Positions 1-57,500 of a DNA stretch of 64,000 nucleotides are shown here, in pieces. The notes under the pieces were generated by a model. That model was given only the letters and a program-made list of their open reading frames with translations, was not told the DNA's origin and searched no databases. Within the stretch, counting starts at the first letter, position 1. Each line of letters opens with the position of its first letter. The translations under genes and the position numbers were made by a program. The stretch is from Pelagomonas calceolata. Its lineage: Eukaryota. The DNA lies in contig CAKKNE010000006.1 in NCBI GenBank assembly GCA_918797485.1, forward strand, positions 3,348,001-3,412,000, given 5' to 3'.

Positions 1-648
1 GAGCCGGTCGAGGCGGACGGTGGCGACCTGTGTGGAAACCAACCAGTGCGTCGGGTGCACCCGACAATTCTTCACTAAGTCATTCCTCGGCGATGACGCT
101 GCCGTGCTGGCTCCGTCGAGCGGTGAGGAACCGGCACCGCCACGCCATCGAGCACGCGCAACGCGCCGTAAAATTTTGATTTCCACACAGGTGGCGACAT
201 TTTCGTTCGGGCGGAACAACGCAGTGTCCGAGGCTGTGTGGAAATCAACCAGTGCGTCGGGTGCAATTCTTCACTAAGTCATTTCCCGGCGATGACGCGG
301 CCATCCTGGCTCGGTCGAGCGGTGAGGAACCGGCATCACCACGCCATCGAGCAGGCGGCGCGTCGATGGCGTGGAGGTCGACGCGAAGATTCAGCACGAA
401 CGCGCCGTAAAATTTTGATTTCCACACACAGGTCCGAGGCCTTCTCGCGGGGCATGCGCTTCCGCACGGACATGCTCTTCAACGGCAGCATCTGCGGCGC
501 GCAGCGCGACAAGAATGGGGATCCGGACTTCGGCGCGCCGTGCGCGTTCGACGCCGTCCGCGAGGACCTGGCGCGGCGGCCGCTGCGGGGCGTGCCGGAC
601 GGGAGGCCGTTCCTCGAGGCCCGCCGGGACCTGGCTCGGAGGCGATGA
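1..648 (+). CDS. 3' part of hypothetical protein (5' truncated by window), two introner introns
   Basis: Exons <2-19, 191-225 and 432-648 join into one open frame (SRSRRTVATFSFGRNNAVSEAFSRGMRFRTDMLFNGSICG...LARRR*) after removing GT-AG introns 20-190 and 226-431. Confidence 0.6.
28..190. mobile_element. Introner/MITE copy 1
   Basis: TIRs ctgtgtggaaaccaa / ttgatttccacacag; perfect 8-bp TSD gtggcgac at 20-27 and 191-198; intron 20-190 (+). Confidence 0.95.
234..431. mobile_element. Introner/MITE copy 2
   Basis: Same TIRs (right one has an extra ca); TSD gtccgagg at 226-233 and 432-439; intron 226-431 (+). Confidence 0.95.
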
Positions 649-701
649 CACGAGTAATTACCATCGGATGGACCATTGCGGGGCGGGCGGAGGCGAAGCG
701 A

Positions 702-3700
702 CTACGCGGGCGCGACCGCGCCGGTGCGGCTCGGCGCCCGCAGGCACCACACCGCGCACGGGTGGCAGAACATCGTCCAGCCCATCAGGCTAATTCCCAC
801 GAGTAGGCCCATCGGCGAGTAATAGAACCTGTGTGGAAATCAAATTTTTACGGCGCGTTCGTGGCCGTCGAGTCATCGACGCGACGCCGGCTCGATGGCG
901 TGGCGATGCCGGTTCCTCGCCGCTCGACCGAGCCAGGACGGCCGCGTCATCGCCGGGAAATGACTTAGTGAAGAATTGTCGGGTGCACCCGACGCACTGG
1001 TTGATTTCCACACAGAGTAGAACATCGTGGGGGCCTTGAACCAGTAGTCGTGCCTGCCGCATCTCCGCAAGTGCCCCTTCGATTCGTGATGCTCCCACCA
1101 AACGCACGTGTCAAAGCGTTGTGGTACAAGAGCGGAGACCATCCAGAGGCCGGTAAAGAAGAAAAACCAAGCGAAACTGTGGAAGCACAGATTATCCCAC
1201 GCGAACCGCGTGCAGCCGCAACTCGTCGCCTCGGAGAAGACCACCTTATCGAGTTCCTTCTGCGCGTCGTCGTCGGCCTCGGCCTGGAGCATCTCGGCGA
1301 TCTCCCGGCCGAGCCGCGACTGCGCCAGACCCTCCTCGCCGCCGGCAATCCTCAAAAACACCTTCTCCATCGTCGCGCGCGCGAGCGAAAAGTCGATCAC
1401 GCCGAGCCGCGCGCAAGCGTCGTCGTCGAACGCGCGGAACGCGAGCGCCGGCGTCCGCCGCGGGTCGACGCCCGCGAGCTCGAGCGTCGCAATGTCCGCG
1501 TCCGCGGCGGCGACGTCGACGTCCGGCGACGAAAAGGCCTCGCGCGCGAACGCCACGAGGTCCGCAACGTGCGCGTCGTCCCGCGTCTCCAGGCGGCACG
1601 AGATCTCGTAGCCCGCCGCGTAGCGCTCCTTGAGCTCCTGCGGCGTCCCGATGCAGCGCATGGTGCCCTTGACCATGATGCCGAGGCGGTCGCAGAGGAG
1701 ATCAGCCTCGCCCATCGAGTGTGTCGTCAGGACGACGGCGCGGCCCTTCATAGTGACCTTGATGAGGTCCCAGAGATTCCTTTGCGCTCCTGGATCCAGG
1801 CCCGACGACGGCTCGTCCAGCAACACCACCGAGGGGCCGCCGACCAGCGCCACCGCGACCGCCAGCTTGCGCTTCATGCCCCCCGACAGGCGGCCGGCCG
1901 CTTTGTCGGCGTGGTCGGACAGGCCGACGACGGCGAGCGCTTGCTCCGCGGCGTGGCGCGCGTCTCCTTCGATGTCGACGCCCCGGAGCCGCGCGAAGAG
2001 ACTCAGATGGTCTCGGCCTGTGTGGAAATCAACCAGTAATTCTTCACTATCGAGCAGGCGTCACGTCGATGGCGTGGAGGACGACGCGATGATTCAGCAC
2101 GAACGCGCCGTAAAATTTGATTTCCACACAGGTCTCGGCAGCTCAGGTGGTCCCAGAGGACGTTCTTCTGGTTGACGACCTGTGTGGAAATCAAAATTAT
2201 GGCGTGGCGATGCCGTTTCCTCGCCGCTCGACCGAGCCAGGTCGGCCGCGTCGTCGCCGAGAAAAAAATCTTCGTGAAGAATTGTCGGGTGCACCCGACA
2301 CACTGGTTGATTTCCACACAGTTGACGACGCCGAGCGACCGCGCTGCGCGTTCGAAGTCCTGTGTGGAAATCAAATTTCGGGCGCCCCACGCCATCGACG
2401 CGATATTTTCTCCGTAGCTGCGTCTGCTCGATGGCGTGAAAGTCAGCCTAACTCACTGGTTGATTTCCACACAGCTCTTGACGGCCAGCACGCTCTTCCC
2501 CGCGACCCTGGCGTCGCCGGACGTCGGTTCGACGGCGCGGCAGATCATCGACACGGTCGTTGTCTTTCCGGCGCCGTTCGCGCCTAGTAAACCAAAAACC
2601 TGGCCCGTCGGCACGCCGAACGCCGCGCACTGGACGGACTCGACGGCCGCACCGCCGAAGAATCGCGGCGGATATATCTTCCGCAGCTCCGAGACGACGA
2701 GGCCGTCGCGGTCCGCTGACTTGATGTCTCGCACGAGCGGCGGCGGGTACGGGTCGTCGCCCGGCGGCACGTTCCGCAGCATGGCGACGGTGTCGCGCAC
2801 GGCGGCGGAAAACCTCGTCGGCGGCGGCCGCGACGGCGGCGCTTCCTCCTCCGGCTCGTCTACCACAATCTGGAAGTCGTCTTCGTTCGTCGACAGGGCG
2901 TCGCCCGCGCTCGCGGCGTCGCCCGCGCCGGTGAGTGCCGCGACGCGCGCGCGCTCCGCGGCGACGTCGTCGGGCATCGCGTTCGCGCGCACCTTGGAGA
3001 CCCGCGTCTTCACCCAGGCGAGCGGGCGCAGGGCCCGTTGATCTTTAAAGAAGACTATTCCTTCATAAAGTATGATGTGGAAAAAGGCGAAGATCACGGC
3101 CGCCCAGCCGCTCGGTAAAGGCGGGTCCGCGCGCTGCCGCGAAAGGGGCCCGTCGCCCGACGCCTCGAGAAATCCCCTGCGCTTCAGCTGCGGGTGGAAA
3201 GCCACCTTGCAGACCTGGACCGCCAGGTTGCCGAACGGCGTTGCGATCGATGCAAGCCACCCGAACTTACAGGAGATATCCTGGTATAGGAGCTGGTTGG
3301 GGTTGCTTGTTGTGACCACCCACCAAAGTCCTGCGAGCCCGGCCGGTGCCGCGCCGCCCACGAAAGCGATGAAAATGGGCGTCGACGCGACCGCAATGAG
3401 CGGCGAGTCGAACGTCGTCGTCGCGAAGTGCGAGAAGCTCACGATCCCCGCGCTGCAGAGCGGCAGTAAAATCCACAACCACGGCCAGCGCTCCATCCAG
3501 CGGCGGACGACGAACTTCGTGGCGTTCTGCCAGGCCCCGGCCCCGATGCCGCGGTCCCAGATGCTGTCGCAGTACCACTGCGTGATGGTATCGTAGGAAT
3601 CGGAGCTCCAAATACCGTTCTGGTCTTCTTGAAAGCCCCCCGGGTACCGGTCGTGGAAGGCGGTTGCTAGCGACGTGGCGGTCGCGTTGTAGGGCCCGAG

Positions 3701-6700
3701 GTCGAGATCCCCCTTCCGAGCGGCCGCGTGGAGCTGCGCGTAGGTCGGCGCGCTGCTACATAACCGCTTGCGATATGCCATGCGCGTCGCCGCTAACATA
3801 AAAACGACGCAGACCGAGCCGCCCACGAGTACCAGCGCGTCGCCGAGCCAGTTTCCCAGCCAGTACGTGAAGGTGTCGAGGCCCGAGACCGCCAGCAGAT
3901 TCCGCAGACCCCTGGCGCGCTCGCGGACGTAGGGCTCCACCACGAAGCCCGCCACAAGGAAGTAGGCGCCCACCAGGACCCCGGCGACGAGTACGTTGTA
4001 GCCCTCCGCCCACTTGCTTCCGAAGCGCGGGACCTTCTTCCTTCTGCCCATGGTTCCGCGCACGACCAGCGGCATCGCCGCCGCCGCCACTTGGAGGAGC
4101 ACCAGGATCGTTCCATGTATCCCGGCGGAACAAAACGCCGAGGCGAAGACGGAGCCCAAAACTTCCACGACGAGGCCAACAAAGAACCCGGCGACGCCGC
4201 CGGCGGTCCGCGCTCGCGCGCGGCGGCCCGCCGCGCTCGCGGCCATGCGCCGAAACGTCTTCTTGTCCACTTGCCAGCCCACAATCCAGCCCACACTCCA
4301 CCCCGTCCCCGCACCCGCGATCGCACCAAAGACCGATGTTGGAGAACCAAAGTACGGCCGGAGCCCGGCCTCGAGGCCTACGGCGATCGCCGTGGCCACC
4401 AGCGACGTCAGCCCCCGCGCCAGGGACTCCCACCATTCGGTTTTCACGAGGACACATGTCATCCCCACGAAGGCGCCTACGACACCGCCGGCGACCGCGC
4501 ATGGCGCCGACACCGAACTTTTGAAACAGTAGTATCGCACGCCGCATTCCAGCGCCGCCAACAAAAAAACGAATGCTGAAAAAGCGACGGAGGTCGCGAA
4601 CCACAAACCCAGGCCGAGCCAGCCGCCTCCCTGCACGCCCACGGCCACGCCGAGGGTCGGCGCCCCGGCCAGCGCCGCGACCAGGACGGCAAATTTCGTG
4701 GGTACCGTGAAGGTCGTGTGGTCTTTGCTTGCGCGCGCCCGCGCCACCGCTTGCTTGAGCCCGCCGGGCACCGCCGCGCCGCCGAGGACGAACTTTTTGA
4801 TCCACACGAGGTCGTCTCTTATTTGCTGGAGCCTGTGTGGGAATCAAGAGGTGAGTCGAGGTCACTTTGATCTGTCTGCACCGCTGGGAGCCGAAACTGG
4901 ACCACGGCCGCGACGAGCCTCCCCGCCGGCACCGGCTCGCCTGGCGCCGACGGCAGCAAGGCCCCGCCAACCAACGTCTCTGCCTCCACGGGCGCCGCCG
5001 CGCCCTCGACCTGCTCGCCGACGGCTATGAACACGTCCTCGAGCGACGTCGCCGTCACCGAAACGTCGACGAGGCCCAAGCCGTCGGCCTCGGCCTCCAG
5101 CCCCTCAAAGAGAGCTGCGACGCGTGCCCTGGGTGCGTGGACGGTGTACGTCGTCGTGACGTCGCGCGCGGAGTCTTCGAGGAGGGGGGCCTCGGCGTTC
5201 GCCCAGTTCCGCGACGCGGAGAAGCTCGTGCCACGGGTCGCGTTCAGGAGAGGACTCTTAAATGATGACGAAAAGCTCTTCGGCGTCGACCCGAGCAGCG
5301 GGTTCGCGGCGTCCGTTTCGGTCGCCCGGCGGAGGTCCTCCTCGAGCTTCGAGGCCGCCGCCAGCTTGGCTCCGGGCACGTGCTGCGCAAAAATCCCTTT
5401 AAGTTGATCGCGCGCCGCGGCAGTCGTCGTCACCGCCACGTGGAGGCCGCCGGTCGACGTGTCCGCGCCGCCCTCGGCCTTGGCTCGAGCCTCGGCCGCC
5501 TCCCGCTCCAGACGAGCCTTCTCCGCGGCTAATCGTTCCCGCTCCTCGGCCCCGGCCGCGGCCATGCGTTCCGCTAACGCTTTGGCCTCCGCCTCCTTCC
5601 GCCTCGCCTCCTCCTCCGCCGCCTTGCGGCGAGCGGCGACCTCTGCGTCGTCGCCCCCGCCGAAGTGCCGCTTCAGGAAAGAGAGAGTGCCGCAGCACGT
5701 CACGCTCCCGGCCGCCATGATCGCCACCCGGTCCGCCAATGCTTCGGCCTCCTCCATGTGGTGCGTCGTGAGGAGCACCGACCGGTCGACGCGGACGTCC
5801 CGCAGCAGGGTCCAGACCTCGCGCCGCGCCACGGGGTCCATCCCCGCCGTCGGCTCGTCGAGGACCACGAGCCTGGACCCGCCGGTCAGCGCCGCGGCCA
5901 TCATCACCTTGCGCTTCTGGCCGCCCGAGAGCTTGAGCGGAAACCCCTCGGCCATTTCCGCGAGGCGGAAGAGCTCCAGCAGGCCAGTCGCCTCGTTCTC
6001 CGCTCTAGCTTCCTCGACGCCCTTGAGCCGTGAGTAGAAAATGAGGTGCTCCCGGAGCGTGAGCTGAGGGAACAGCGCGTCGTGCTGCGGGCAGAAGCCG
6101 AGGAGCTGGCGGAGCCGGTCGAGGCCGTCTGCTTCAGCTAAGGGGCCAAGCGTTCGTATACCAAAGAAACTTGCGCTGCCGCCGTCGGGCGCCATCGCAC
6201 CAGTCATCATGGACATGGTGGTCGTCTTGCCCGCGCCGTTGTGACCCAGCAGGCAGAAGATCTCCGAGTCGCGAATCGCAAACGTCGCGTCGGATACGGC
6301 GACCTTCTTCCCGAAGGCCTTCCGGAGGCCTCTTACCTGGACCGGCGCGTCGGCGCTTTCATCGTTCTCGAACCACTCGTCGTGGTCCACGAGCGGCGCC
6401 TTCTCCACGACCTCGTCCGGCGGCGGCGGTCGCCAGTACGCCTTCCGGATGCAAAAGAGCAGGTCCTTGCCCTTGCCCCGCGCCGCCGACGTCGAGACCT
6501 GGATCACGTACCACAGGACGGCCGCCCACAGCGCCACGGACACCATCAGCATGCAGTAGACCCCGGCCGTCCACGCGGACTCGGGCCGCCAGCCCCGATC
6601 CTCAGTCTTCTCGTACCAGAAGGGCCAAACGTCCTCGCACATGAGGTGCTCGTCGGCGCAGGGCGCCGCCGTCAGCGCCTGGCTCTGCAGATACTGCTCG

Positions 6701-9700
6701 AAAGCCTCGAGCCGCGGCCCCGGGGCTTTTTCCCAGCACTCTTTTCTACACTGCTTGCACGGGTAGCGCTCCCCCACAAAGCCGTCGGCGACGAGCCGGC
6801 ACCGCCAGCCCGCTCGCTTTCCCGTCGGGCTGAACGAGTCCACCAACAAATCGTAGGCGAACTGCGGCAGGAAAGCCGCGCCGGCGAAGTGCGCGCGCGG
6901 CCGCGCCCGCAGGGTCCAGTGCGTTCGGAGCCGGCCGCCACCGTGACGGTTCCAGGTCCGGAGCGGGTTCCAGGCGAGGTAGCACCCGTGCAGGGCCGCG
7001 TGCAACAGGGGCGGGAACCCCGCCGCGGCGATCTGCGACCGAAGGAGGCACGTGACCACCACGAAGGTCTGGAGGGTGAGCGCCAGCAGGAAGAGCCAGT
7101 GGAGGGCGAAGAGCTCGAGGAACGCGGCGACCTCGAAACTCTTGCCGGCGCGCCGGAAGAGGCCCGGCGCGGCGCCCGCGGCGATCGCGACGGCGACGCC
7201 GCCGCCGACGGCGACGCCCTCGACCAAAAAGGATGCGAGCCAGTAGGCCGCGTCGGCGCCGCCCGCCGCGCGCGTCGCCTCGCGCGTGCCTTGCGCGACG
7301 TCCCCCACCAACGCCGAGGCGACGACCTGGACCCACGGGAAGAAGAAGAACTGGAACACTTTGAGCTCGAGGTCGCCGTGGATCGTGTCGAAGCCTGCGC
7401 TCGCTTTGGTGCTCCGCTGTTTTCGATTTCGTTCCCTGGTGTCGTACAGTAACCACAGGACGCCGACGCCGAGGAGCGGGACGAATACTTGCTTGGCCAG
7501 GGCGCCCGTCGTGCGCTTTTTTATAATCCACGCCTTGCGCACGAGGAGCGCGGTGCGTTCCGTGAGCGACGGCGGCTCGGCGGCGTGTTTCGGCGCGGCG
7601 CCGTCGGCGCCCGCGGGCGCCGCCTCCGCGAGCGAGAAGAGCTGGCCCCTTTGGACGCCCTCCGGCACCTTGACCTTGATGCCGTCGGGGCGGGTCACGA
7701 TCGTGCCCGGCGGGCCCGGCGCCACGACCCAGGGGACCGTCTGCTCCGTCCCGTCCTCCGCGGTGTAGACGGCCGCGGGCGGCCGCTTGACCAGGAGTCG
7801 CCGCCAAAATTCGCCGCAGCGGCCACAGCAGCCACAGTAGAGGCAGCGGCCGAGGCGGGCCGTCCCCTTCTTCGGGCCCTTGTCCGCGAGCGGCGCGGCG
7901 ACGGCCCGCTTCCTAAGCGACGCGACGCCGGCCGAGAGCTTTTCCAGAAGCGCGACGACGGCTTGCTTGTTCTTAAGCGACGCGACGCGCGGCGCGACGT
8001 GGCGTCTGAAAAGCGCCGCGACGCCGGCCGAGAGCTTCTCCACCCGAGGCGCGACGTGGCGTCTGAACCAGGGGCGCCGCTCGCAGAACTTCTCGTAGCG
8101 CGCGCGCGCCTCGTCGCGGAACACGATCAGCAGCCCGCCGAAGAACAGGAAGAAAAAGAGCGGCGCGGCGCCCGCCCCTAATTGCCAGCTGAGCGTCGAC
8201 ACGAGCACTATGGGAACGATCGTGGCCGGAACCACTCCGGGCCGGCGTCGCAGCAGCGCCGGCAGGGTGCACAACAACTCGAGCCAGCCGCCGCAGCAGA
8301 CGAAGTAGCAGTAGCGGGCCCCGACCCCGTCCTCTATCTGCCGATTGACCCAGTTCCGTAAGCGTTGGAGGTGCGCGTATCCAAGGCACGCCGGCTGCGA
8401 GACGCAGCACGCCGCCGCGACGCCGACGACGTAGATGAGGCCGACGCCCAGCCACGCGACGATTTGTCTGGCCGTGACCCAAGTTACAATGTGGGGGTCG
8501 TAGAGTATACGATAAAACCCCTCGTGGGCATTCCAACGCGCCGCGGCCGCCCGCGACGCGAAGCCGCAGGCGTCCGGAATCGCGTCGCCGCCGCCCTTGT
8601 CGGGCCACTTCTTCACGGCGGCCCTGAGCTTCTCGAAGAGGACGGGGTCGTGGCCGAGCTCGGCGCACGTCTTCCCGCAGGTCCCGAGGCAGCCGCCGTG
8701 GAACTCGCGCGCCGCGGCCCGCGCGCACGCGTCGGCCGCCGCGGTCGTCGGCGCCGCGTCCAGGCCCCGCCAGCGGCGGGGCGCGCGCGTCGAGGCCCAG
8801 AAGTTGTCCCACGGGTGGCCCCAGTTCGGGTCGGTGTTGGCGTAGTGGCCGTCCCTGTACAGCCACGCCTCGTCCCAGGCCTTGCCCCCCGCGAGCTGCG
8901 CGTGGAAGAAGTCGCCGTCCGCGGTGACCACGCCGCAGGCCCGGATGCGCTGGCGCTCGCCCACGCGCCGGTTCTTCCGCGAGGCCGGCCAGGGCTCCTG
9001 CTCCCGCAGGTCGGCCCGGAACCAGTTGCGGACGCAGGCGTTGTCGCCGAGTCTTTCCTTGTACTCCCACGACCAGAGGCGGTCCCACCAGCGCCACGAA
9101 TCCTCGCGGACGTAGTAGAGCGCGCCGGACGCCGGGTCGCACCGCAGGCCGTCGCAGGCGTAGGGCTCGCCCCTAAAGTCGCAGGGGGGCGTGCGGGCGT
9201 GCTCGCCGTCGTAGTCCATGGTGCCAAAATACTTCAAGAGGACGTCGCACCGCCGGGGACCGCTGCGGTGGAAGCATTCCGGCGCGGGCGCGACGCATTT
9301 CGCGTCGTCGGAAGTCCCGTTCGTGCAGCACGCGCCGACGCCGGGGACGAAGTCCACGCCCGCCAGCGTGTGGTCGTCGGCGCAGTACCGGGACTGCGGC
9401 CCAAAAATGCGGGTCCGTTCCCAGAAGGGAGTCTCGTAATGCATGCCGTAGCAGTCCTCCTTGATCGTAAACCCGCTGTGTTCATCCAAAGGATCCCAAA
9501 AACGATCCACGGCGGCGCCCCCGGGCATCATCCCGCGGCACGCGTCGTCGACGCAGTCGGCGCGGGGCGACGGCCGCGCGAAGCACGCCGCCGGCGCGTC
9601 CGCCTTCGGCCGGCAGGTCGTCTCGCGGAACCACTCCTCGCGGTCCGGCTCCTCCCCCCAATCCTCCCCCCAGTGCGCCTCGCAAAAGTGCTGAGAGCAG

Positions 9701-10650
9701 GCCTCTCCTGCAAGGTAGACCGTCCGACACGTGGAGGTGCCGTCGCCATCGTCGGCGGGTTTATCTCCGCACTCGGCTTCGCAGCAGTCGCGCCACTCCA
9801 CCGGGCGCCGCCCCTCGTTCGCGTGGGCCTCCCAGCAGATGCCTTCGGCGTCCACGTCCGCGGCCGTCGTCAGGTTGTCGACGGCGCCCTCGCAGCACGT
9901 GAAGACGCAGGGCGCGTCGCCCGCCACGACCGTGTACCCGTCCGCGCACGCGGCGGTCTCGTTCGGCCCCGCGCAGCAGGCGCCGGCCTCGGTGGCCAAG
10001 GTGCCCCAACTGCTCCCCGCGAGCGGCGGGTCGTCGAGGCCCTTGTGCACGCTGCACTCGAAGTCCCGGAGCGCGCCGTCGTGGCCCGTCGGCCCGGGAC
10101 CGCAGTGCTCGTTGAAGTTGCCCGTCCGCCACGCGCCGTCGCACTTGCAGTCGCTGTTCCAGTCGCAGCAGTCGTGCTGCTGGCCGCAGTCGTGGTAGCC
10201 GACGGGGCACCAACCGTGGGGCTTGGACGCGTTCTCGTGGTACGCGAGGCTGCAGTCCACGTTCGCAGGCAAATCTGAATTGCACGGTCGGTACTTTTTT
10301 CCATTTGTCTTCCCACGTTCCCGACGCAAGCACGACGGGGCTCGAAAGCGTTCGCACTGGTCGTCGCAGGCGCAGTCCGCGTCGCGGTCGCAGCAATCGC
10401 CGCACTCGTAGTAGCCTTCGGGGCACTTGGGCGTGCGCCAGGCGTGGTCGTAGGCGTCGCCGCCGTGGCCGTCGCAGTTGCAGTCCGCGTCCTCGTCGCA
10501 GCAGCTGGCGCACGTGTAGTAGCCCGCGGCGCAGATCGGCGCCGCGCTCGCGTTTCGCGGTTCGACGCGGCACTGCGTGTTGTCGCAGACGAAGGGCGGC
10601 TCGGGCAGCGCCCCGTAGGCGGCGGCCAGGCCCGCGAGCCGCCGGAGCAT
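702..10650 (-). CDS. Full-size ABCA-family transporter (~3099 aa) with N-terminal Cys-rich ectodomain
   Basis: Exons 10650-4892, 4832-2483, 2359-2330, 2179-2140, 2017-1024 and 828-702 total 9300 nt in frame. Two NBDs (GHNGAGKTT/LSGGQKRK/LDEPTAGMD and GANGAGKTT/LSGGMKRK/LDEPSSGLD), two multi-TM regions, ABCA-type SLEDVF/TMEKVF motifs. Confidence 0.88.
829..1015. mobile_element. Introner/MITE copy 3
   Basis: TIRs intact; TSD aatagaac (821-828) / agtagaac (1016-1023), 7/8 match; intron 1023-829 on the - strand. Confidence 0.93.
2018..2131. mobile_element. Introner/MITE copy 4 (GC-AG intron)
   Basis: TIRs intact; TSD gtctcggc at 2010-2017 and 2132-2139; on the - strand the donor is GC; splicing restores WDHLSCRDHLSLFARLRG. 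Confidence 0.92.
2180..2321. mobile_element. Introner/MITE copy 5
   Basis: TIRs intact; TSD ttgacgac at 2172-2179 and 2322-2329; intron 2329-2180 (-). Confidence 0.95.
2360..2474. mobile_element. Introner/MITE copy 6 (no matching TSD)
   Basis: TIRs intact; GT donor 8 nt outside the TIR (2482); splicing gives GKSVLA|DFERAARSLG, but the flanking 8-mers do not match. Confidence 0.88.
4833..4891 (-). mobile_element. Degenerate short introner intron (copy 7)
   Basis: One recognisable TIR (ctgtgtgggaatcaa) supplies the acceptor; the other end is decayed; TSD-like gctcccagc/gctccagc. It joins the 1980-aa and 784-aa ORFs in frame. Donor position uncertain (GC). Confidence 0.7.
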
Positions 10651-11011
10651 CGCGTGCCCCAAAGAGTTTTTCACAGTGTGCTGGAATCGATGGGGCAGCA
10701 GCGCTGGCTCTGATTGCTCGGCGCTGCCTGCCTGCCTTGCAAATGCAGCAAAGATCTTCACAAAGGCGCTGGATTGGTGGGGCAGCGCTGATTAGATAGC
10801 TGCCCCGGCGCCGGAGCTCTGGGCGCTGCTGGTTTGCAAATGCAAATCTAGTGGGCAGCCCTAGAGGTGGGTGACATAAAACGCGCCTCTTCTCTCCTAG
10901 ATTTCCCACGGTACGACCTCTCCGGAACTGCAACTTATTTAGGCGAGGCGGCCACGATCGCCGCGAGGCGCCCGCCCGACGATACCACCACACTATTACC
11001 ACACTATAATA

Positions 11012-11755
11012 TTAAGATGCCTGTCCCACGGCCGCCGACGACGCGGCCAGCGCGTCCTCCGCGGCCTCCCAGGCCGTCCGCGCCCGGTGGAGCCGCCGCC
11101 AGCAGGCCGCCGCCGGCGCGCCCGGCGCCCAGGCCACCTCGACGAGCTCGCAGTTGTCGAACTGGAACTTCGGGTCTCGGAACGTGTCCATCGCGCCCCC
11201 GAGCGCCGCCGCGACCATGCACCGCCCGAGCGCGCCGTGCGACACGACGAGGCTGCACGGCGGCGCGTCGCGACGCAGCGCGGCCCAGTTGCCCACGGCG
11301 CGCGCCCACAGGTCGGGCAGCGGCCGCGCGCCGTCGTCCATCACGAAGGCGGCAGGGTCCGCCTTCCAGCGCGCCCAGCCCGTGTCCATGACCTCGCTTT
11401 TGAGCTTTCCCTCCCAGGTATGCAATTCGATCTCCCGCAGATCGTCGCGCACGACGGGCTCCGGTAGTAATGTGCCGCAGGCCTCCTCGATGCACGCGAG
11501 CGTCTGCCGCGCGCGCGTCATGGGCGACACCCAGACCTTGGATATCCTCGCGAGTTCCTCGTCAGCAATGTAGCAGCCCAGCTCCTCGGCCTGGCGCACG
11601 CCCCGGGCCGTCAGCACGGACGTATCCAAAGTGCCCTGGATGCGGCCCTCCGCATTAAAGTTCGTCTCGCCGTGGCGCGCGATCAGGAAGCGTTGCGCGC
11701 CTTGCGGCGGCTCGAGCGCCATCGTCAGTGTGATTGTCACTGCTGCGATGCGCAT
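11012..11755 (-). CDS. Histidine phosphatase / phosphoglycerate mutase family protein
   Basis: RHGETNFNAEGRIQG, SPMTRARQT, LREI and VSHG motifs; hydrophobic N-terminus. Confidence 0.88.
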   Translation of the reverse strand: MRIAAVTITLTMALEPPQGAQRFLIARHGETNFNAEGRIQGTLDTSVLTARGVRQAEELGCYIADEELARISKVWVSPMTRARQTLACIEEACGTLLPEPVVRDDLREIELHTWEGKLKSEVMDTGWARWKADPAAFVMDDGARPLPDLWARAVGNWAALRRDAPPCSLVVSHGALGRCMVAAALGGAMDTFRDPKFQFDNCELVEVAWAPGAPAAACWRRLHRARTAWEAAEDALAASSAAVGQAS

Positions 11756-11942
11756 GGGTGTGCACGCCTTGATGCTCTATGCTCTCCGGGACTCGTGTCT
11801 CTGCACGGCTCTCCCGCCCTCTTGGTGGCGCGCAAGGTTTGCACCTGGGCGCGCACGACTATGACCTCTCTCGGAAGGAGCTCTAGTGATGATCTATGCA
11901 GCATAGCACCCAAAACGAGCCACAGCTTGTGAAATTAGCGGG

Positions 11943-11965
11943 GCTAGCGGCCTGTAAGACACTAG
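11943..11965 (+). promoter_or_regulatory. Recurrent intergenic motif GCTAGCGGCCTGTAAGACACTAG, copy 1
   Basis: Identical copy at 23194 and near-identical copy at 17487; lies between divergent genes. Confidence 0.5.
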
Positions 11966-12262
11966 GGATGCCTAGCAAGCAAGCATGCGCCTCCCGAAGC
12001 TTCGTAAAACGATTAAGATTATCCCGTTTTGAACCATTTGCATGACTCTGCACACCGTTCTGTTTTTCGTAAGCAACCCGCACCAAAAAAAAGAGATCCC
12101 AAAATTTAATGCGCTGCGCGACGGCAGCCGCCCTCGACGCGAAACCGCCTCCACGCACCGCCGGGCAGCCAAGAATCACTCGGGCGCGTCCACTGCTTGC
12201 AGCCGGGCAGCCCTACCGATTGACCGGTGAGCTCCCACGCCATCTAACACACACCCGGTACC

Positions 12263-14396: not shown

Positions 14397-14441
14397 GATT
14401 AGCGAATCATACAGCACTTACAGGGGCGAGGAAGGGAGGGA

Positions 14442-14978
14442 CTAGTACTGCACGCAGATCCGAGCACCGGGCTCCGTCCGCGGCGGCACGCGCACGTTCA
14501 GGACGATGTTCTCCGGCGTCGTCGTCTGGAGCGTGTCGCCGACACGGACGCCGGGAGGCACGACGACGAAGACCCGCCGGTTGCGGCGGCGCGCGACGCC
14601 GTCGGGCTGGACGGTGACGACCTGGGCCCGGTCGCACGGCGAGAAGCAGGGAATCAGCGCGCACGGCGGGAAGACCGTGAAGAGGAGGCACGACGCCAGG
14701 AAACTGACGGGCCCGTAGTACTGGGATTCCACGACCGCGACGCGGCCGGCCGGCGGGCCGGGGCGCACGAGCAGCGCGCCCTGTTCTTCCTCGCGCTGGA
14801 GCCGCTGCGCGAGGACCGCGTCGCTCTCGATGGTTGCGGCCGCGAGCGGCTCGATGGTCTCCGCGACGCTCTCGGCGATGGGCACGGTCTCGTCCGCGAC
14901 GACGACGTCGGCTACGGGGAGTTGGGCGTCGTCCGCGCCGCCGTCGACCGGCTTCGCTGGGGCCGTGGGTGGGGCCAT
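14442..14978 (-). CDS. Small hypothetical protein with Cys-rich hydrophobic segment and VPPG-repeat module
   Basis: ATG at 14978 in the 406-aa ORF frame; YYGPVSFLASCLLFTVFPPCALIPCFSPCD followed by VVVPPGVRVGD...VRVPP. Confidence 0.55.
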   Translation of the reverse strand: MAPPTAPAKPVDGGADDAQLPVADVVVADETVPIAESVAETIEPLAAATIESDAVLAQRLQREEEQGALLVRPGPPAGRVAVVESQYYGPVSFLASCLLFTVFPPCALIPCFSPCDRAQVVTVQPDGVARRRNRRVFVVVPPGVRVGDTLQTTTPENIVLNVRVPPRTEPGARICVQY

Positions 14979-15434
14979 TTTCGCTCGCTCGCAAAGAAGT
15001 TGCTGGCGCTGGCAGAGGCCAGATGAGCAACGAACCTCGCCTCGCGCCGCGGGCAAAAGATTTACGCGCCTGGCTAGAGGGCGTCGAACAGGTACCCTAC
15101 ACGCTGCGGTGAGCCAATATGCGCTCCGCTGCGAGCTGTCGAGCCGGCGCTGCGTAAAGCTTGTTCTTCCTAGTGTGTCGAAGACGCTAGGTAGGGCAAA
15201 TTTCAAGTGACAAAAAACGACTGACACTGCCTCCAGAATTGGTTTCCGCGTGATATTTGACGCATTGGCTTCAGCTGCTTGCAATCTGAACGCTGCGTGA
15301 GTGCCGTGCCGTGCAGCAGTGCACCCATCAATAGGCTGCCACTGCCACAGTGTTGCTGCACAGCACAAGCGAGCGGCGCTGCAAAATAAGCTCAGCAGAG
15401 TATCCTCGCACACTGCACAAATCAACGAGTAGAA

Positions 15435-16082
15435 ATGCGCAAGTTCGCTCTCGCGTTCGCTTGCGCGGCGAGCAGCCTGCAGACTGCGCCGCGACGCTGC
15501 TACAAGGCACGGCGGCGCCACGCGACGCCCGACGACGACGACAACACAAAGTGGAGCGTCGACGTCGACGAGTTCGCGGAGCGCATCGAGTCCGCCAAAG
15601 CCGCGGTTGTTGGTGGTCTCGCCGCGTCGGTCGCGGCTTCGCCGGCGGAGTTCCTCACGCATACGAACAACATCGCCCAGTTCGAGTTCGACGTCGACCA
15701 GATCTCGATCGCGGGCGCGCTCTTCGGACTCGTGTTCCGGTCTGTGTGGATATCAAATTTCAGGCGCCCCACGCCATCGAATAACCTAGCTCACGGTTGA
15801 TTTCCACACAGGTTCCGCTACGCGGTGCGGCGCGACAACAATCCACAGCTGCGCCAGGGCGTCGTCGGCGCTTTTACAATTACGCGCGCGGTGGCCACGG
15901 TGCGCGTGAGCGACGAGTGCCTCGCGGTGCCGCTGCGCTGCGGCCCGCCGCTGTCGTACCTCGACTACGCCATGCTCGGCCAGCTCGTTTCGGGCCTGCT
16001 CGTCTCGGGCGTCGCGTTCGCGGCCGCGGCCGCCGCAGTTGATGCGGGCGTCGACCGGGGGTGGCTTAAGAGGTTTCCTTAG
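15435..16082 (+). CDS. Probable plastid-targeted membrane protein (~189 aa)
   Basis: Signal peptide plus transit-like N-terminus; removing introner intron 15734-15811 gives LFGLVFRYAVRRDNNPQLRQGVVGAF; several TM segments. Confidence 0.75.
15742..15811. mobile_element. Introner/MITE copy 8 (70 bp)
   Basis: TIRs ctgtgtggatatcaa / ttgatttccacacag; TSD gttccggt / gttccgct (7/8). Confidence 0.92.
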
Positions 16083-16083
16083 T

Positions 16084-34028: not shown

Positions 34029-37009
34029 ATGCGCCTCCTCATCCTCCTCACGTTAACGCGCGCCCAGCAGCTCGTCTACAAGTACAACGTGTCCTGCGAC
34101 AACGCCACCAATACCTTAGTGAAGGACGAGCGCCGCGGACCAGACGGCGACTGGGTGGGAGAGTGGGTGGAACCGGGCGGCGGCTGGGTCCCGAACTACG
34201 TCCGAATTAACTTAAGAGCGAGGTACATCCACGAGATGGGCGGCGACAACTCCAGCAAACTGGCCAAACAATTGTGCCATAGTATAGGCGCGACGATCGC
34301 CACGATCTACTCGGAGGAGGAAGACGAATTAGCCTACGCCGCCTGCAAGCCCGCGGACTGCTGGATCGGCCTCGAGGAGGACGGCGGCGTCCCCGACTAC
34401 CTGTGCGACGGGAAATGCGGCACGGCCGAGACGTGGTGGGGCGAGCAGGTCCACGCCAGCGTCCCGTGCTACTTCCTGACGGCGTCGACGCGACTCCTGT
34501 CCGTCAGACGAGGTAGTTGATTCGGTCCGAAACGGCCCAAATTTGGACCAGAGACGAGTCGCGTCGATGGCGTGGAGATCACACACGTGTCGCGCGCAGG
34601 TCTGGCTCTGGGTCGACGACATGGGCGGGCCGCTCGGACTCATCAACCGGCGCATCGGCGACGGCCTCGTGGGCTACCGGTGGCGCGCCGGCGGGTCGAA
34701 CGGTCTCAACATGCCCGAGGGCTACGAGAACTGGAACCGGTTGCAAGGGCAGCCGGACAACGGGAAGTTGAAGGGTGTGCCCGGCGACGAGCGCCACGCG
34801 CACATCGCGGGCTACGACGGCATGTGGCACGACGTGCTCGGCACCGACGAATATTACCCGTTGTGTCGCATGTGGCCGAACCGCTCCGACGGCTTCGTCT
34901 GGAACGGGACGGACTGCAAGCCCAAAGCAACGCCCTCGCCGACGACGTACAACGTCTTCCTCCACGACCCCGAGTACGTCTGGGGCGGCTTTCTGTTCGT
35001 CGTGTTCCATTGTTTGGTACTTGGTCTGTTATTCACGCTCTCGAAAAAAGTGCGAGATAAACGAGAACGGACCCGGGAGCACTACTACTACTCGTGGCGT
35101 AGTATGTGTGCGTCTGGCACTCTATTTTTATGTTTTCCGCCCTACGCGCTGCTACCTCTGTTAACGCCGTGCGATAAATATAATACGGCGATCGTCCCGG
35201 AAGGCGGCGGCGGCCCCGAGTCGCTCGTAGACGACGGCAAAAGTACATTAGCCCAATACTATGCGGCCTTCATCGAACTCGTCCAAGCGTGCACGTGGGC
35301 TATCGGTCTCCCTTTAAAGATGGCGATGTCGCGGACCGACTTCCTAGCCACGCGCTACAACGACTTCGGGGGCGCTAGTTACCGAGCCTTCGTCGACCTC
35401 AAGCTCAAGAAAGATGAAAGAATAAAATGGTTAGATGCGTGGGGTTCGATTGATGCGGACACGTCGAATTCTGTGGATGCCGCGGAGTTCTTCGACGCGT
35501 TTCGTCTAGACCCAAATGAATACGCGAGAAAATTGTATAATATCTATGATGCGAAGAAGAACAATAGCGTGCCGTTCCACGACTTTCTCATCACGTCCTG
35601 GCGCTTGTGCCACGTCAGTCGCGAAGCTTGCGAAGAAGTTTCGTTTAGATTGTTGCGACGGTCCTCGCGCTTCAATAAATTAGACTCGACGCTGGACGTG
35701 CGCGACGTCCAGCGCTTCGTGGAGCACCGCTACGGCTTCAAGAAGGCCAGTGCGAAGAAGAAGTCGCTGCAGATCTTCCAGTTTGTCGCTGTGTGGAATC
35801 AACCAGCGAGTTAGGTTCCTCCACGCCATCGAACTGACGCTGTCACGGCGACAACGTCGCGTCCATGGCCTGGATTCTCCACGCCATCGAGCCGCCGCGG
35901 TCACGGAGACAACGTCGCGTCGATGGCGTCGGGCGCCCGAAATTTGATTTCCACACAGGTTCATCGATAAAGATGGATCAGGGGGTATGGACTTCAAGGA
36001 GTTCCAGGTACTGCACGCGGCGTCCCTACTCGTCACCCTCCACGCCATCGGCGCGGCTCGATGCGCTCGTCGTGACGCCATCGCCGCGTAACGCGTCCGC
36101 ACGCAGGCCTTCGGCCGCACGAACCCCGTCTTCCTCGCCGTCGGGCATCGGATGCAGACCAAACTACGACACAAGCTCTTTGGGCGCCAGTACTGGCTTG
36201 ATCAAACAAAAAAACGGAAAGACCGGTATGCCTTCGACAAGAAGTTCGAGAGTGACATGGAGAAGTATGTTGGACTAAGATACGGCGACATGCCACCCGT
36301 CGAGCGGAAGTCGCGGGCGTCCTTCGGGAGTCGCACAGCGACGCCAGCAACGCCAAAGAAGAAGGAGGCGGCCGTCGACTTCTGGGGCGAGTTTCCCGAG
36401 GTCTACCAGCAGGTATTGACACAAATCAAGAAGGAAGAGGGCGAGAAGGCGACCTTAGCTGCCTTGCACCGGACGATGCGGGCAGAACTACACGGGAAAT
36501 TGATCAAGGCCGTCGAGACGCTATTTGGGGATGCTCGTTCATTGGAAGGGTGCTTCTCGCGGTGGAAAGCTAGATGTGTCCAACAACGTAGACTGTTGAG
36601 AGATGTTGACTCCGCGACGGGCACCGAGACGACCGAACTTGATGTGGACGACGCGGTGCACGCGGGCATCATCGAGACCATGAACCGGACGCTGCCGTCG
36701 CACGAGGTGCGCGACGCGACGTTGTTGAAGGCCCATGACATAGCTACGATGAAACGAACAAAACGAAGTCGATTAACAGCAGCCCAGTACGGGACGTTGC
36801 GCGGGGCGCTCGGCGACCATTCGATCATTGAAGATGGTGTTGGCTGGCGCGAACGCGAGTCGATTGTTTCGATCCAGCGGTCTTCATCTCTGAAGTCTCG
36901 GTCGCGTATCCGGTCGTACTACGACGACGGCGACACGTCCGACGAGGAGTCGGCGGCGTCGTTCTTGTATGACGATGATGGGTCGGTAGTGAGTAAGCTC
37001 ACTTTGTAG
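34029..37009 (+). CDS. C-type lectin domain / transmembrane / EF-hand protein (~850 aa)
   Basis: Exons 34029-34448, 34600-35780, 35959-36007 and 36107-37009 total 2553 nt in frame. Signal peptide; CTLD (LC...IATI, CWIGL, YENW...QPDN, WHD, LC); TM; EF-hands DADTSNSVDAAE and DKDGSGGMDFKE. Confidence 0.8.
35789..35958. mobile_element. Introner/MITE copy 9
   Basis: TIRs ctgtgtggaatcaa / ttgatttccacacag; TSD gtttgtcg / gttcatcg (6/8); splicing restores an EF-hand entry helix (IFQFIDKDGSG). Confidence 0.92.
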
Positions 37010-38006: not shown

Positions 38007-38393
38007 GTTTGTGCTTGTGAGAGATCCTGCAGCGACGCGTCGATGGCGTACGGCGCTCTAGCAGGCGTCTGCTCTCTGAAAGTTGTGAGAGCACGAGATT
38101 ACTCTGTATATGCGAAGAGTTGCAACCGCAGCCGACTCTACGCTTGAGACAGGCTTTGATGCGCGTGAGCAATGGCACGGTGTATGCAGCAGGGAGGCCG
38201 TGCGTGGCCAGCAAAAGCGTGTTCTAAGTGACTTACCGCTAGCTGATTATGCTGCTTACGCGTGTCCTCTGCTCGCTCGGCCTGTGGTCGCTATCACACA
38301 CAGCTGAAGCGTTGCAGCACCCTCCACATTGCAACTGACCACCTGCGCAAGCAGCGAGCACCACACTGCATCGCTAGCTGCAAAGCCGACAGC

Positions 38394-53403: not shown

Positions 53404-53585
53404 GGTCTGCTCGATGGCGTGAGGGCCCTGCACTGGGCCTGCAGTGTGCTCAATGTATGTCAACTCGGCGCCTTCTGAGGCCTCATTTTTGGCCGCCGGC
53501 CAAGCGACGGATTAATTCCAAGTACTACGCGTTCCCCTTGCACGGCGGGGTCTCAAAGCTCCTAGGTAGGGGTTGCTTATGCCTG

Positions 53586-54395: not shown

Positions 54396-54506
54396 CTGAC
54401 GCGTGTGTGAAATAATGTGCCATCGAACCTGCCCGACGGCGTATGGGGGGTGTGTATTAGTCGATTCTTATAGACAAGCGCCTTGTGCGCACGGCCGGAT
54501 AGGGCC

Positions 54507-57500
54507 TCAGGCGACGCGCTGCGCCGACGGGTCCGGCACGTACTCCCGGCCGACGACCCCGTCCAAGCGCTTCTCGTCCATGCCGGCGTAGCCCGCGCCG
54601 GCGTGGTAGCCGTGGAAGACCTTCGCCGCGATCTCGACCTGGGCGTCCTTGGGCACCATCTCCGGCGGGATCTCGACGCGGTTCACTATTTTAATACCGG
54701 ACTCGACGATGGCGTTGTACTTCATGTCCGACATACTAATAAAGTTGTGGATCTTCGTGATGCCGAGCCAGTGCAGGACGTCCGGCATCAGAGCTTGAAA
54801 ACGCGTATCTTGAACACCGGCAACACTTTGAGTGCAGTTGAAGTACTCCTTGGCTTTATCCCCTCCTTCTTGACGCTTGCGCATGTTGTACACTAGGTAT
54901 TTGGTGACCTCGCCGAGGGCCCTACCTTCCTTGCGGAAATACACCACAACGCCCGTGCCGCCGCGCTGCGCCGTCTTGATGCACTCCTCGATGGCGTGCG
55001 TGAGGTACGGTCTACAGGTACAGATGTCGCTGCCAAACACATCACTCCCGTTGCACTCGTCGTGGACCCTCACTGTCAATTCGACGTCCTCGTCTTCTAT
55101 TTTGGACGCGTCGCCCCATATATAAGCCGTCATGCCGCCGATGGGCGGCAGGAAGATCTTCAAATCGTCCCTCGAGATTAACTCAGGATACATCGAGTTC
55201 GTCTCCGCGAACAGCGCATCGCGCAAAACCCTCTCAGAAACCCCAAACCGCTTCGCCACGCCCGGCAGGTACCAGACCGGCTCGATGGCTGCTTTGGTGA
55301 CGACTGAAGTACCGTCGTCCGTCAAAACGGTCCCATCGGGAGTCAGCCTTTGCATGCGCAGGGCCTCCAAGCACTCCGGGAGTTGGACGTGAGCTTTCGT
55401 GATGGCGATCGTCGGTCTCACGTCATAGCCCTTGTCGAGCCAAGCGCCGAAGCCCTCGGAGATGGCGTGGCCCCAGGGATCCATAGTAACAATAGCGTCG
55501 GAGTTGCGCCACGCTTCATGAGGACCGATCTTGGCGGCCGGCGTCGTCAAGCCCAACTGCGGTAAGGCATCTCTATCAATTTTCCCCGCGGCCACCGCTA
55601 ACGCGCGATACACGGAATAACCACCAGCATGCGCACCGATGGCGTTGCGTTGCGTCGTATGTCGCGTCGTCGCCAGGACCGGGCCTCGGTCCGACGGTGT
55701 CGTGGCGCCCCACCTCATTCTACAGGGATCGGGCCCGAAACTCCCATCGTGCGTCGTGAGCTGCGTGGCCGCCTCGTCCTCCGATTTTGGTAAGGGGATC
55801 TCTCCAGTATTACCGGAGACGTCTCCTAGTATGAGGGTGGAAGGCTCCGATCTAACACGTGTGAGACTTTCAGCCGAGTCGGCGCGCGGCCGTCTCGGTC
55901 TCGTAGGCCGCGCCCCGGCCTCCTCCCAGGCGTACGTCGCGCCCAACGCCAACTGCTTCTCGAGGGCCTCGTTGGCGACGATGTCTTTTGCAGATAACAC
56001 TCCAGTAGCTCCGAACAACCGATCCCCGGCATCCCCCAACCCAGGTAAGAGCCCACCATCTCGCGCCAATCGCCCGTCCACTTGTATGGCGTAGACCTCG
56101 ACGTCTGGATGCGCCTCGTGGAGCGCCCGCAGGCCTTCGGCCGACCTGTGTGGAAATCAAATTTTACGGCGCGACACCTGCTCGATGGCGTGGCGATGCC
56201 GGTTCCCCACCGCTCGACGGAGCCAGGACGCACTGGTTGATTTCCACACAGCGGCCGACGCGAGCACCGTGCACGCCACGATGCGGTGCGCGCCCCAGGC
56301 CTTGAGCTTGGCGATGACGGGAGTCATCGTTTTTGCAGTGGCCACCACAGGATCCAAGATGAAGGCGATATCACAACTATCGCCGCCGTGCTTCGGGAGT
56401 CGCGAGTAGTACTCGACGGGCCGATCACTCCCGCTCCGCTTGAACATGCCGATCTGGTGCACGGCCGCGTTCGGCAGCAAAGCTTGCATGCTCTCGACCA
56501 TGCCTAATCCTGCCCTCATTATAGGCACTAAGGCACACCTCGCGGCGAGCCGCGTCGCTCTACCATCAGCAGGAACGTGGACGCCGCGCGGCGTGACGCA
56601 GTCGTGGCGCGGCACCGTCGACAAGGATCGCGTCGCCTCGTAGCCCACGTAGCTCGCAAGCTCCCGCAGCAGCCCGCGGAAGTCGCGCGGCTTCGTCCTG
56701 CGGTCTCTTAGTAAAGTGACCTTGTGCGCCGCGAGGGCGTGCTTGATCAAAGTTGTTTGAGGCGGCAGGTCGTAGGTTACAGGTGAAGGACTTGGGGCGT
56801 CGGGGTCGTCCCAGCCAATCGCGTCCAATGCAGCGCAGACCGCCCAGGCCCGATTCACGTCGAAGCGCTCCGAGCCGTCTATATCACTCCTCAGACCGCT
56901 CTCCATGTCGATCCAGATTGATCTACCTCTAGCGGCGCCCTTCCGTAATTGATCTAAGACGGTAGCGACGTTGTCCCTGTTTAAGCCTCCCGCAAAACCC
57001 TGCGGGATTGACGTTTCTACTGTTGTAAGAGACGCATCTAACGTATGACCACGGCCGCAGGACGCGTCCCACAGCAGCGACAGGTTGGCCGGCGGCTCGT
57101 CCAGCAACGCGCGCCAGAGCGGCGCCGTCTCGTCGTTGGCCTGGACGATGAACTCGACTTCGGGAACGAGTGAGCAGGCCTTTCGGACTTGTTGAGCTGC
57201 TTTTGCAAGTAGTGAGGGGTCCTCGGCGGTCTTGCAGCCGTTCGGCGCCGTCGCGTTGAGCTGCACGCGCCGGAAGCCCAGCCCGACGAGCGTCTGCACG
57301 AAGGCGACGTCGCCCCGTTGCAGGACGTCGTCGACGGCGGAGCCGCACAAATGGCCGGCGAGCTGCGCCGGCGGGCTCGTGTTCCGTGCGGTTTTCGCGA
57401 GCTGCTCGAGCCACCTTCTCGTGGGGAATCTAGGTTGGCCTTCTTTGCCCGGCCGGAAGAGCACGCCGAGTTCCACACGCGGCCAGCGGCTCACGATGGC

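What the first reader, a model, noticed from the sequence alone, without database searches (positions are those of the whole stretch)
20..56259. Family of intron-generating DNA transposons (introners): 10 copies, all spliceable without changing the reading frame
Seen: ten elements share the TIR CTGTGTGGAAATCAA...TTGATTTCCACACAG (starts 28, 234, 829, 2018, 2180, 2360, 4833, 15742, 35789, 56146); copy 7 keeps only one TIR. Most have 8-bp TSDs. In host-gene sense every upstream 8-mer begins GT or GC (donor) and the TIR ends CAG (acceptor). Splicing removes the element plus one TSD and restores the host frame, with recognisable motifs recovered (ABC NBD, EF-hand, UPRT). All ten are in coding sequence and no transposase is in the window. 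Established: this mechanism is described for introner elements of the pelagophyte Aureococcus, so the class is not new. Inference: recent activity of this family.
Basis: partly seen in the sequence, partly recalled or inferred. Interest (0 to 1): 0.8.

Follow-up and report, generated by a model that had tools for sequence, protein, structure and literature searches.

The report
Transposon-made introns in a marine alga
Ten copies of a short jumping-DNA element interrupt genes of a marine alga and are likely cut out of the RNA as exact introns, a real but already described way for new introns to arise.

Summary
Ten copies with the 15-bp TIR are at the stated places. Five have perfect 8-bp TSDs, three near-perfect, one an indel and one (copy 6) none. 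Removing element plus one 8-mer gives GT/GC..AG introns and restores the ABCA, UPRT-GTP cyclohydrolase and EF-hand frames; copies 1-2 lie in an unverified gene. In 93 further copies from metagenomes, 93 have GT/GC at a TSD end (background 32%), and 59 of 64 one-sided donors face the coding strand. RNA against DNA supports real splicing only for copy 7. The copy 4-6 RNA joints may come from paralogues, since DNA also holds empty forms at copies 4 and 5. Orthologues show presence/absence at four sites of one gene, including copy 10. No transposase was found. The host is a pelagophyte. The family matches the published Pelagomonas calceolata introners (202-203 bp, TIR DNA, co-opt 5'/carry 3') in every feature I could compare, but I could not compare sequences. 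Small additions: GT preference, three interiors of equal 203-bp length, TIR-less relics. The scan has noted other introner families before; none shares this sequence.

The parts
20..190 (+). Copy 1: predicted intron (171 nt) = TSD 20-27 + element 28-190, interior type A; GT donor; open frame if retained; host gene unverified
226..431 (+). Copy 2: predicted intron (206 nt), element 234-431, type A, perfect TSD, GT donor; host gene unverified
   Evidence: right end plus flank present without differences in DNA runs X1, X3, X7
829..1023 (-). Copy 3: predicted intron (195 nt), element 829-1015, type A, GT donor, in the C-terminal tail of the ABCA frame
   Evidence: end plus flank in DNA runs X7, X8; homologue alignment stops 25 residues before the junction
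2018..2139 (-). Copy 4: intron (122 nt), element 2018-2131, type A, GC donor, in ABCA NBD2; empty form exists in DNA and RNA
2180..2329 (-). Copy 5: intron (150 nt), element 2180-2321, type A, GT donor, in NBD2; open frame if retained
2360..2482 (-). Copy 6: intron (123 nt), element 2360-2474, type B, GT donor in an 8-mer that does not match the exon side (no TSD)
4833..4891 (-). Copy 7: intron (59 nt), GC donor, acceptor-side TIR kept, donor-side TIR decayed; kept in DNA contigs and skipped in RNA contigs
15734..15811 (+). Copy 8: predicted intron (78 nt), element 15742-15811, type B, GT donor, stop if retained
35781..35958 (+). Copy 9: predicted intron (178 nt), element 35789-35958, type B, GT donor, splits an EF-hand-like motif
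56146..56259 (-). Copy 10: intron (114 nt), element 56146-56251, type A, GT donor, splits the UPRTase domain at profile position 160; absent from orthologue P0122
702..10791 (-). Host ABCA-type transporter frame (3146 codons, open only when copies 3, 4, 6, 7 are removed; copy 5 adds 50 residues if kept)
54507..57836 (-). Host frame: UPRTase + GTP cyclohydrolase II-like fusion (980 aa spliced); empty targets at 55328, 55127 and 54908 are filled by the family in other genomes

Best explanation
The ten repeats are deleted copies of a short, non-coding element with 15-bp inverted ends that sits in exons and is likely removed by the spliceosome as an exact intron, so the family likely works as a non-autonomous cut-and-paste transposon that makes introns (an introner). 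Shown: TIRs, 8-bp target duplication, GT/GC at the start of the upstream 8-mer, CAG at the element's end, either orientation of the element, frame restoration, and empty sites in related DNA. Inferred: a transposase encoded elsewhere (hAT-like by the 8-bp TSD) cuts at the TIRs and inserts at GT- or GC-starting targets; the first TSD copy becomes the 5' splice site; the TIR end (TTGAT as a likely branch site, a pyrimidine run, CAG) becomes the 3' splice site, in both orientations because both ends read alike; the second TSD copy stays in the mRNA, so the protein is unchanged. Targeting to GT and loss of wrongly oriented insertions probably both act. Afterwards the interior, the intronic TSD copy and the donor-side TIR decay (copies 6, 7).
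For: Window anatomy. Removing element + 8 nt scores best against 119, 118 and 114 of 120 ABCA homologues for copies 4, 5, 6 and 11 of 11 UPRT-fusion homologues for copy 10; UPRTase profile 2-159 then 161-205. Transcriptome-derived P0124 equals the spliced copy-10 protein: 980 of 980 columns, no gaps, 97.6%. Copy 7 is skipped (59 nt) in 3 of 4 RNA runs and bridged with the element in DNA contigs of 3 of 4 DNA runs. Metagenome set: 93 of 93 paired copies have GT/GC at a TSD end against 0.318 background; 59 of 64 one-sided donors agree with the codon-model strand and 79 of 85 frames join best at element + 8; orientation 34:34; 59 of 93 TSDs have 0-1 mismatches. Empty site at copy 4 with one TSD in 4 of 4 DNA runs. 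Three window-empty targets, all starting GT/GC, are filled in orthologues, and copy 10's site is empty in P0122.
Against: No transposase or long element found (window; 24 ORFs beside unpaired TIRs; longest of 93 paired copies 294 nt). The copy 4 joint stands in DNA too, and the copy 5-6 RNA joint carries a variant mini-exon that DNA run X8 shows directly behind the copy 5 site, so these joints may be paralogues without the element and do not prove splicing. One RNA run (X15) holds a contig that keeps copy 7. P0124 could come from a strain without copy 10. Copy 6, and 10 of 93 metagenome copies (4 or more mismatches), lack a recognisable TSD. 5 of 64 donors disagree with the strand call and 6 of 85 fail the frame test. 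RNA and DNA runs are from different samples and are contigs only.
Confidence: 0.93

Rival explanations
1. The introns spread through RNA: an excised intron (donor 8-mer plus element) reverse-splices into another mRNA and is copied back into DNA; the TIRs are a legacy.
For: Copy 6 and a few metagenome copies (e.g. L040:611-782) have a GT 8-mer unrelated to the exon side and no TSD, with the frame intact or the flanks joining cleanly. Almost all copies are in coding sequence (7 of 85 non-coding-like).
Against: 42 of 93 copies have perfect TSDs that differ from site to site; elements lie in both orientations, 34:34, which an RNA route would not give; no donor 8-mer was seen carried in the same orientation between two sites. 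TSD-less cases can be decay or chimeric assembly.
Confidence: 0.04
2. Ordinary MITEs that are not spliced: the genes are broken or the copies are tolerated, and frame restoration only reflects that removing an insertion plus one TSD always rebuilds the target.
For: Removing an element plus one TSD restores any target by arithmetic; joints for copies 4-6 can come from element-free paralogues; element bins are far deeper than unique bins in RNA libraries, and X15 keeps copy 7.
Against: Arithmetic does not explain GT/GC at 93 of 93 sites, nor its agreement with gene sense in 59 of 64, nor copy 7 being kept in DNA and skipped in RNA, nor a 3146-codon frame without other breaks around five insertions.
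Confidence: 0.02
3. Assembly artefact: repeats misplaced into genes by the assembler.
For: High-copy repeats can cause chimeric joins; some mismatched TSDs in metagenome contigs may be such.
Against: Element ends with their flanks recur in independent DNA runs of different studies (copies 2, 3, 7); site-specific TSDs.
Confidence: 0.01

Closest known systems
Pelagomonas calceolata introners: 956 putative IEs (PMC9481584, Supplementary Note 3) and families fam2, fam3, fam39 (PMC12130899, supplementary file 8, sd07)
   Same: Intron length peak near 210 bp; GT and GC donors, AG acceptor, conserved TIR. fam2: 340 copies, TIR DNA, hAT, 202 bp, gt 281 / gc 42, 'co-opt 5' carry 3''; fam3 and fam39 are 203 bp. 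Here: 203-nt mode (14 of 93), GT 63 / GC 13, same splice-site logic.
   Different: Sequence identity not tested: the logo is a picture, and the TIR string was not found in the supplements searched. That table gives no TSD length for fam2 and lists 13-14-nt TIRs; I measure an 8-bp TSD and a 15-nt TIR. Presence/absence between genomes did not appear in the passages I read. The species of the window was not determined.
Aureococcus anophagefferens introner elements (Huff, Zilberman and Roy 2016; paper not held, details recalled; mentioned in PMC7789003, PMC9860276 and the PMC12130899 table)
   Same: TIR elements with direct repeats of constant length and canonical splice sites; fam1 'co-opt 5' carry 3''; the 8-bp TSD and codon-phase bias are recalled, not read.
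   Different: Different host: window proteins are 64% (UPRT fusion) and 47% (ABCA part) identical to A. anophagefferens homologues. GC donors are commoner here (13 of 76 against 10 of 316). Three exons between neighbouring copies are only 30-40 nt, below the nucleosome-sized spacing recalled for that system.
Micromonas introner elements (PMC4540971 abstract; PMC11282704 passages)
   Same: MITE-like, one splice site carried and one co-opted from the TSD; presence/absence polymorphism and insertion hot spots reported.
   Different: 3-bp TSD; donor carried and acceptor co-opted, the reverse of this family.
hAT-superfamily non-autonomous elements / MITEs
   Same: 8-bp TSD, short TIR, no coding capacity; published fam2 has a RepBase hit named hATv-2N1_EHux.
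   Different: No transposase linked here; the TIR begins CTGTG rather than the usual hAT start (recalled as YARNG).

Membership tests
Introner, TIR-DNA type (co-opt 5', carry 3') | Many sequence-similar introns at unrelated gene positions | tested here: met
   10 in the window, 93 paired in 120 metagenome loci; 87-99% identity to full-length copies
Introner, TIR-DNA type (co-opt 5', carry 3') | Terminal inverted repeats | tested here: met
   15-nt TIR at both ends in 9 of 10 window copies
Introner, TIR-DNA type (co-opt 5', carry 3') | Target-site duplication of fixed length, with an empty site holding one copy | tested here: met
   8 bp; 8 of 10 window copies within 2 mismatches, 73 of 93 metagenome copies; empty site at copy 4
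Introner, TIR-DNA type (co-opt 5', carry 3') | 5' splice site from the TSD, 3' splice site from the element, in gene sense | tested here: met
   93 of 93 GT/GC; 59 of 64 on the coding strand; acceptor AG unchanged in 34 of 34 freely varying acceptor TIRs
Introner, TIR-DNA type (co-opt 5', carry 3') | Spliced out of RNA at the predicted junction | tested here: inconclusive
Introner, TIR-DNA type (co-opt 5', carry 3') | Non-autonomous (no coding capacity) | tested here: met
   54-294 nt
hAT superfamily | 8-bp TSD and short TIR | tested here: met
hAT superfamily | TIR starting with the common hAT motif (recalled as YARNG) | tested here: not met
   TIR starts CTGTG; the motif is from memory and not universal
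hAT superfamily | Autonomous partner with a hAT transposase and the same TIR | tested here: inconclusive
   None in the window or beside unpaired TIRs; no whole genome held
Published P. calceolata fam2 / fam3 / fam39 | Length, donor ratio and splice-site mechanism | tested here: met
   203 against 202-203 nt; GT:GC 63:13 against 281:42; same mechanism
Published P. calceolata fam2 / fam3 / fam39 | Sequence identity with the published consensus | not testable with these tools
   No consensus found as text in the supplements searched

The most novel reading that the evidence does not exclude
This family is still moving in wild populations, aims at GT sites in exons by itself rather than only through selection, keeps a fixed 203-bp length across three different interiors, and loses its TIRs and TSD fast enough that many ordinary-looking introns of this alga are its relics. 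With four or more polymorphic sites in one 3-kb gene, it would allow the whole life cycle of an intron (gain, decay, loss) to be measured within one abundant species.
Probability: 0.3. Interest if true: 0.6.

Novelty: already known. Interest (0 to 1): 0.3.

Why it matters
As a class it is known and, most likely, already catalogued for this lineage, so it adds a clean example rather than a new mechanism. Its value is practical: a defined TIR and TSD to find the missing transposase, a marker for strain-level intron presence/absence in ocean metagenomes, and a warning for gene calling (GC donors, 30-40-nt exons, read-through of elements in database proteins such as P0122). If the targeting and relic readings hold, it would make rates of intron gain and decay directly measurable.

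Tried and rejected
Whole-genome scan: no genome is held. Viruses as carriers: 14 and 53 single exact matches in viral contigs, 0 of 67 loci with a TIR pair within 420 nt and no interior match, so chance. Prokaryote genomes: 1 hit, at the end of a short 64% GC MAG contig, probably a mis-binned algal contig. Autonomous element: none among 93 paired copies or 24 ORFs beside unpaired TIRs, chosen from 102 listed. Empty sites among the metagenome loci themselves: none. Rfam: 0 matches in the window. Faster decay of the donor-side TIR: 15 of 49 against 4 of 41 with 2 or more edits (p 0.02; 19 truncated, 7 weak and 6 short-flank cases left out), but 26 against 22 substitutions among paired copies, so only a weak hint. 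Copy 6's 8-mer travelling with the element: L079 has the same 8-mer, at the opposite end of the element, rejected. Search for shorter homologues gave no further same-species fragments. The host gene of copies 1-2 could not be identified: the two remote protein searches gave no answer. Copy number from contig depth (place 956 against single-copy contigs: about 1300, 900 and 240 in X1, X3, X7) is an order of magnitude only. Copy 3's intron folds with z -4.4, which the TIR stem and internal palindromes explain; not used as evidence of function. Huff et al. 2016 is not held. A search for a hAT GTnnnnAC target motif found no paper.
Full report
Observation. The 15-nt TIR matches 19 places in the window at up to 3 mismatches, against 0.56 expected from shuffles; 18 are ends of the ten elements. 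TIR-to-TIR lengths are 163, 198, 187, 114, 142, 115, 70, 170 and 106 nt; copy 7 keeps only the TIR at 4833. The 8-mers on the two sides are identical for copies 1, 2, 4, 5, 10, differ at 1 base for 3 and 8, at 2 for 9 and at 6 for copy 6; copy 7 has a 9-nt version with an indel. In gene sense all ten predicted introns start GT (8) or GC (2) and end CAG.

Host frames. Removing copies 3-7 gives one open frame of 3146 codons (10791 to 704, minus strand). Keeping copy 3, 4, 6 or 7 brings a stop; keeping copy 5 adds 50 residues without one. Pfam finds ABC_tran positions 5-49 before copy 6 and 80-136 after copy 4. Against 120 ABCA homologues, removal of element + 8 nt scored best among five frame-keeping variants in 119, 118 and 114 cases for copies 4, 5, 6. 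Copy 10 splits UPRTase at profile position 160; element + 8 was best in 11 of 11 fusion homologues, and transcriptome-derived P0124 aligns to the spliced 980-aa protein without a gap at 97.6%. Copies 3, 7, 8, 9 are supported by a codon model and by stops or frameshifts on retention; homology does not reach copy 3's junction. For copies 1 and 2 the gene is cut by the window's start, has no Pfam hit, and the codon model did not favour the predicted join, so 'all ten in coding sequence' holds for eight and is open for two. No transposase family was found in 47 ORFs or exon pieces.

Host. The best ABCA hit and a 64%-identical UPRT fusion are from Aureococcus anophagefferens; GC is about 59-74% by 2-kb bin and holders are marine. 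The host is thus a pelagophyte other than Aureococcus; Pelagomonas is an inference from the published intron features, not a test.

RNA and DNA runs (contigs only, different samples). Four metatranscriptomes laid on 1-16500 show the copy 4 joint (122 nt) in 4 of 4, a joint across copies 5 and 6 with the mini-exon between in 3 of 4, and the copy 7 joint (59 nt) in 3 of 4; 134 further joints were not shown, and those for copies 1, 2, 3, 8 are not among the 15 shown. Four DNA runs laid on 1-5200 change the reading: the copy 4 joint is in 4 of 4 of them, the ABCA region lies at a few times single-copy depth with variant letters, and run X8 shows the RNA's variant mini-exon directly behind the copy 5 site. 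Those joints are therefore best read as element-free paralogues or alleles: proof of an empty site with one TSD, not of splicing. Copy 7 is different: DNA contigs of X3, X7 and X8 bridge it with the element in place, and its joint is not among the 15 DNA rows shown (366 hidden), while RNA skips it; one RNA run keeps it. Ends of copies 2 and 3 with their flanks recur in independent DNA runs, which excludes an assembly artefact there.

Independent copies. TSD mismatches: 0 in 42, 1 in 17, 2 in 14, 3 in 10, 4 or more in 10. All 93 have GT/GC at the start of the left 8-mer or, on the other strand, of the right one; background is 0.318. A codon model trained on window genes (self-check 56 of 56, not held out) was applied to the 85 copies with enough flank: 59 of 64 one-sided donors agree with the coding strand, 21 work both ways, and 79 of 85 frames join best at element + 8. 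Among 76 oriented copies the element points either way (34:34, 8 unassigned), with GT 63 and GC 13. GT is used in 52 of 62 well-kept TSDs although it makes up 31% of available GT/GC sites; targets end in AC in 8 of 62 against 5% (p 0.012), a faint palindromic bias; only 7 of 85 flanks look non-coding, and these too have GT/GC. Intron phases (35:9:30) follow GT availability (516:179:436). These loci need not all be one species, and some may be chimeric.

Structure of the family. 14 of 93 copies are exactly 203 nt and only 3 are longer. The 203-nt copies fall into three interiors, A, B and C, with low alignment scores to one another; A and B share a short internal word. Window copies 1-5 and 10 are deletions of A; 6, 8, 9 of B; identity to the nearest full-length copy is 87-99%.

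Presence/absence. Members of the protein cluster nearest the copy 10 gene (15 of 101 listed) include products called straight from DNA that run into or out of the TIR. P0122 and P0131 enter it at the window-empty target 54908, P0125, P0127, P0130, P0131 leave it (and P0123 enters a decayed one) at 55127, and P0134 enters it at 55328; these targets start GT, GC and GT in gene sense. P0133 suggests a fourth site near 55172 with an unclear target. P0122 reads through copy 10's site without an insert. The matched parts are 97-100% identical to the window's protein.

Mechanism. Shown: TIR, 8-bp TSD, empty sites, GT/GC donor in gene sense, CAG acceptor, both orientations, frame restoration. Inferred: mobilisation in trans by an unseen, probably hAT-like transposase; spliceosomal removal, with TTGAT in the TIR as a likely branch site (position unchanged in 34 of 34 free acceptor TIRs against 3 changes in 34 donor TIRs; the branch consensus is recalled). 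Sense orientation needs selection or a transcription-linked bias; the lack of any GT/GC-free copy among 93 suggests targeting as well, but that is not separated from strong selection in a gene-dense genome.

What is known. PMC9481584 (passages; supplementary PDF part 1) reports 956 putative IEs in Pelagomonas calceolata with GT and GC donors, AG acceptors and TIRs, and a 210-bp intron peak. PMC12130899 (passages; table rows) lists 11 families for that species, among them fam2 (340 copies, TIR DNA, hAT, 202 bp, gt 281 / gc 42, co-opt 5' carry 3'). PMC9860276 (passages and section 7; table rows) describes the same splice-site logic in general. PMC7789003 and PMC11282704 were read as passages, PMC4540971 as abstract and outline. 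Huff et al. 2016 is recalled only. The TIR string was not found in the supplements searched; a picture logo, two files cut when stored and two unsearched files could hold it. Searches for Pelagomonas with introner and with intron polymorphism returned no paper on presence/absence in this lineage; the library lacks most subscription papers. Earlier notes of this scan hold no look-alike of this sequence and describe other introner families in other genomes; none changed my reading.

Verdict. Real, well supported, and very likely an already catalogued pelagophyte introner family. It works like the Aureococcus-type introner and meets the tested membership features, with direct splicing evidence limited to copy 7; hAT membership is unproven. 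Interest 0.3.

Noticed in passing
window 39361-39599 (+), about 36008-36106 (+), ending at 34599 (+): Three predicted introns without TIRs carry the family's internal word, and in all three the next exon starts GT or GC: possible old, decayed copies. Donor positions of the last two are not fixed.
   Followed up: partly
window 32439-32481, 38030-38056, 53405-53421: Short TIR-less matches to interior types A/B (best 86% over 43 nt, E 2.6e-9) between or near genes.
   Followed up: no
window 1-4891: Seven of the ten copies lie in the first 5 kb, with exons of only 35, 40 and 30 nt between copies 1-2, 4-5 and 5-6; neighbours in metagenome loci are 131-4957 nt apart. Possible local hot spot.
   Followed up: partly
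window 54851 and 54725 region (minus strand); P0122, P0125: Orthologues appear to have two further TIR-less introns with the internal word at GT sites where the window has none: intron loss in this lineage or old polymorphism.
   Followed up: partly
L019:3199-3401, L023:560-762, L112:117-319: Three different interiors share the TIR and the exact length of 203 nt, hinting at a length constraint on transposition.
   Followed up: partly
window 2475-2482; L040:611-782: Donor 8-mers unrelated to the exon side beside intact TIRs (no TSD); decay, gene conversion or misassembly not separated.
   Followed up: partly
window 54507-57836 (-): Three-part fusion: weak PRAI-like barrel, UPRTase, GTP cyclohydrolase II-like; the UPRT fusion is shared with other algae.
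   Followed up: no
window 702-10791 (-): Very long ABCA-type frame with a cysteine-rich N-terminal region of about 800 residues; its C-terminal half is multi-copy in DNA runs while 400-1253 lies at single-copy depth.
   Followed up: partly
window 38247-40531 (+): Thioredoxin fused to a thioredoxin-reductase-like domain across a 239-nt predicted intron.
   Followed up: no
window 25984-30575 (-): Acidic repeat-rich protein with FHA, Shugoshin_C-like and BRCT matches, MDC1-like in layout (name recalled).
   Followed up: no
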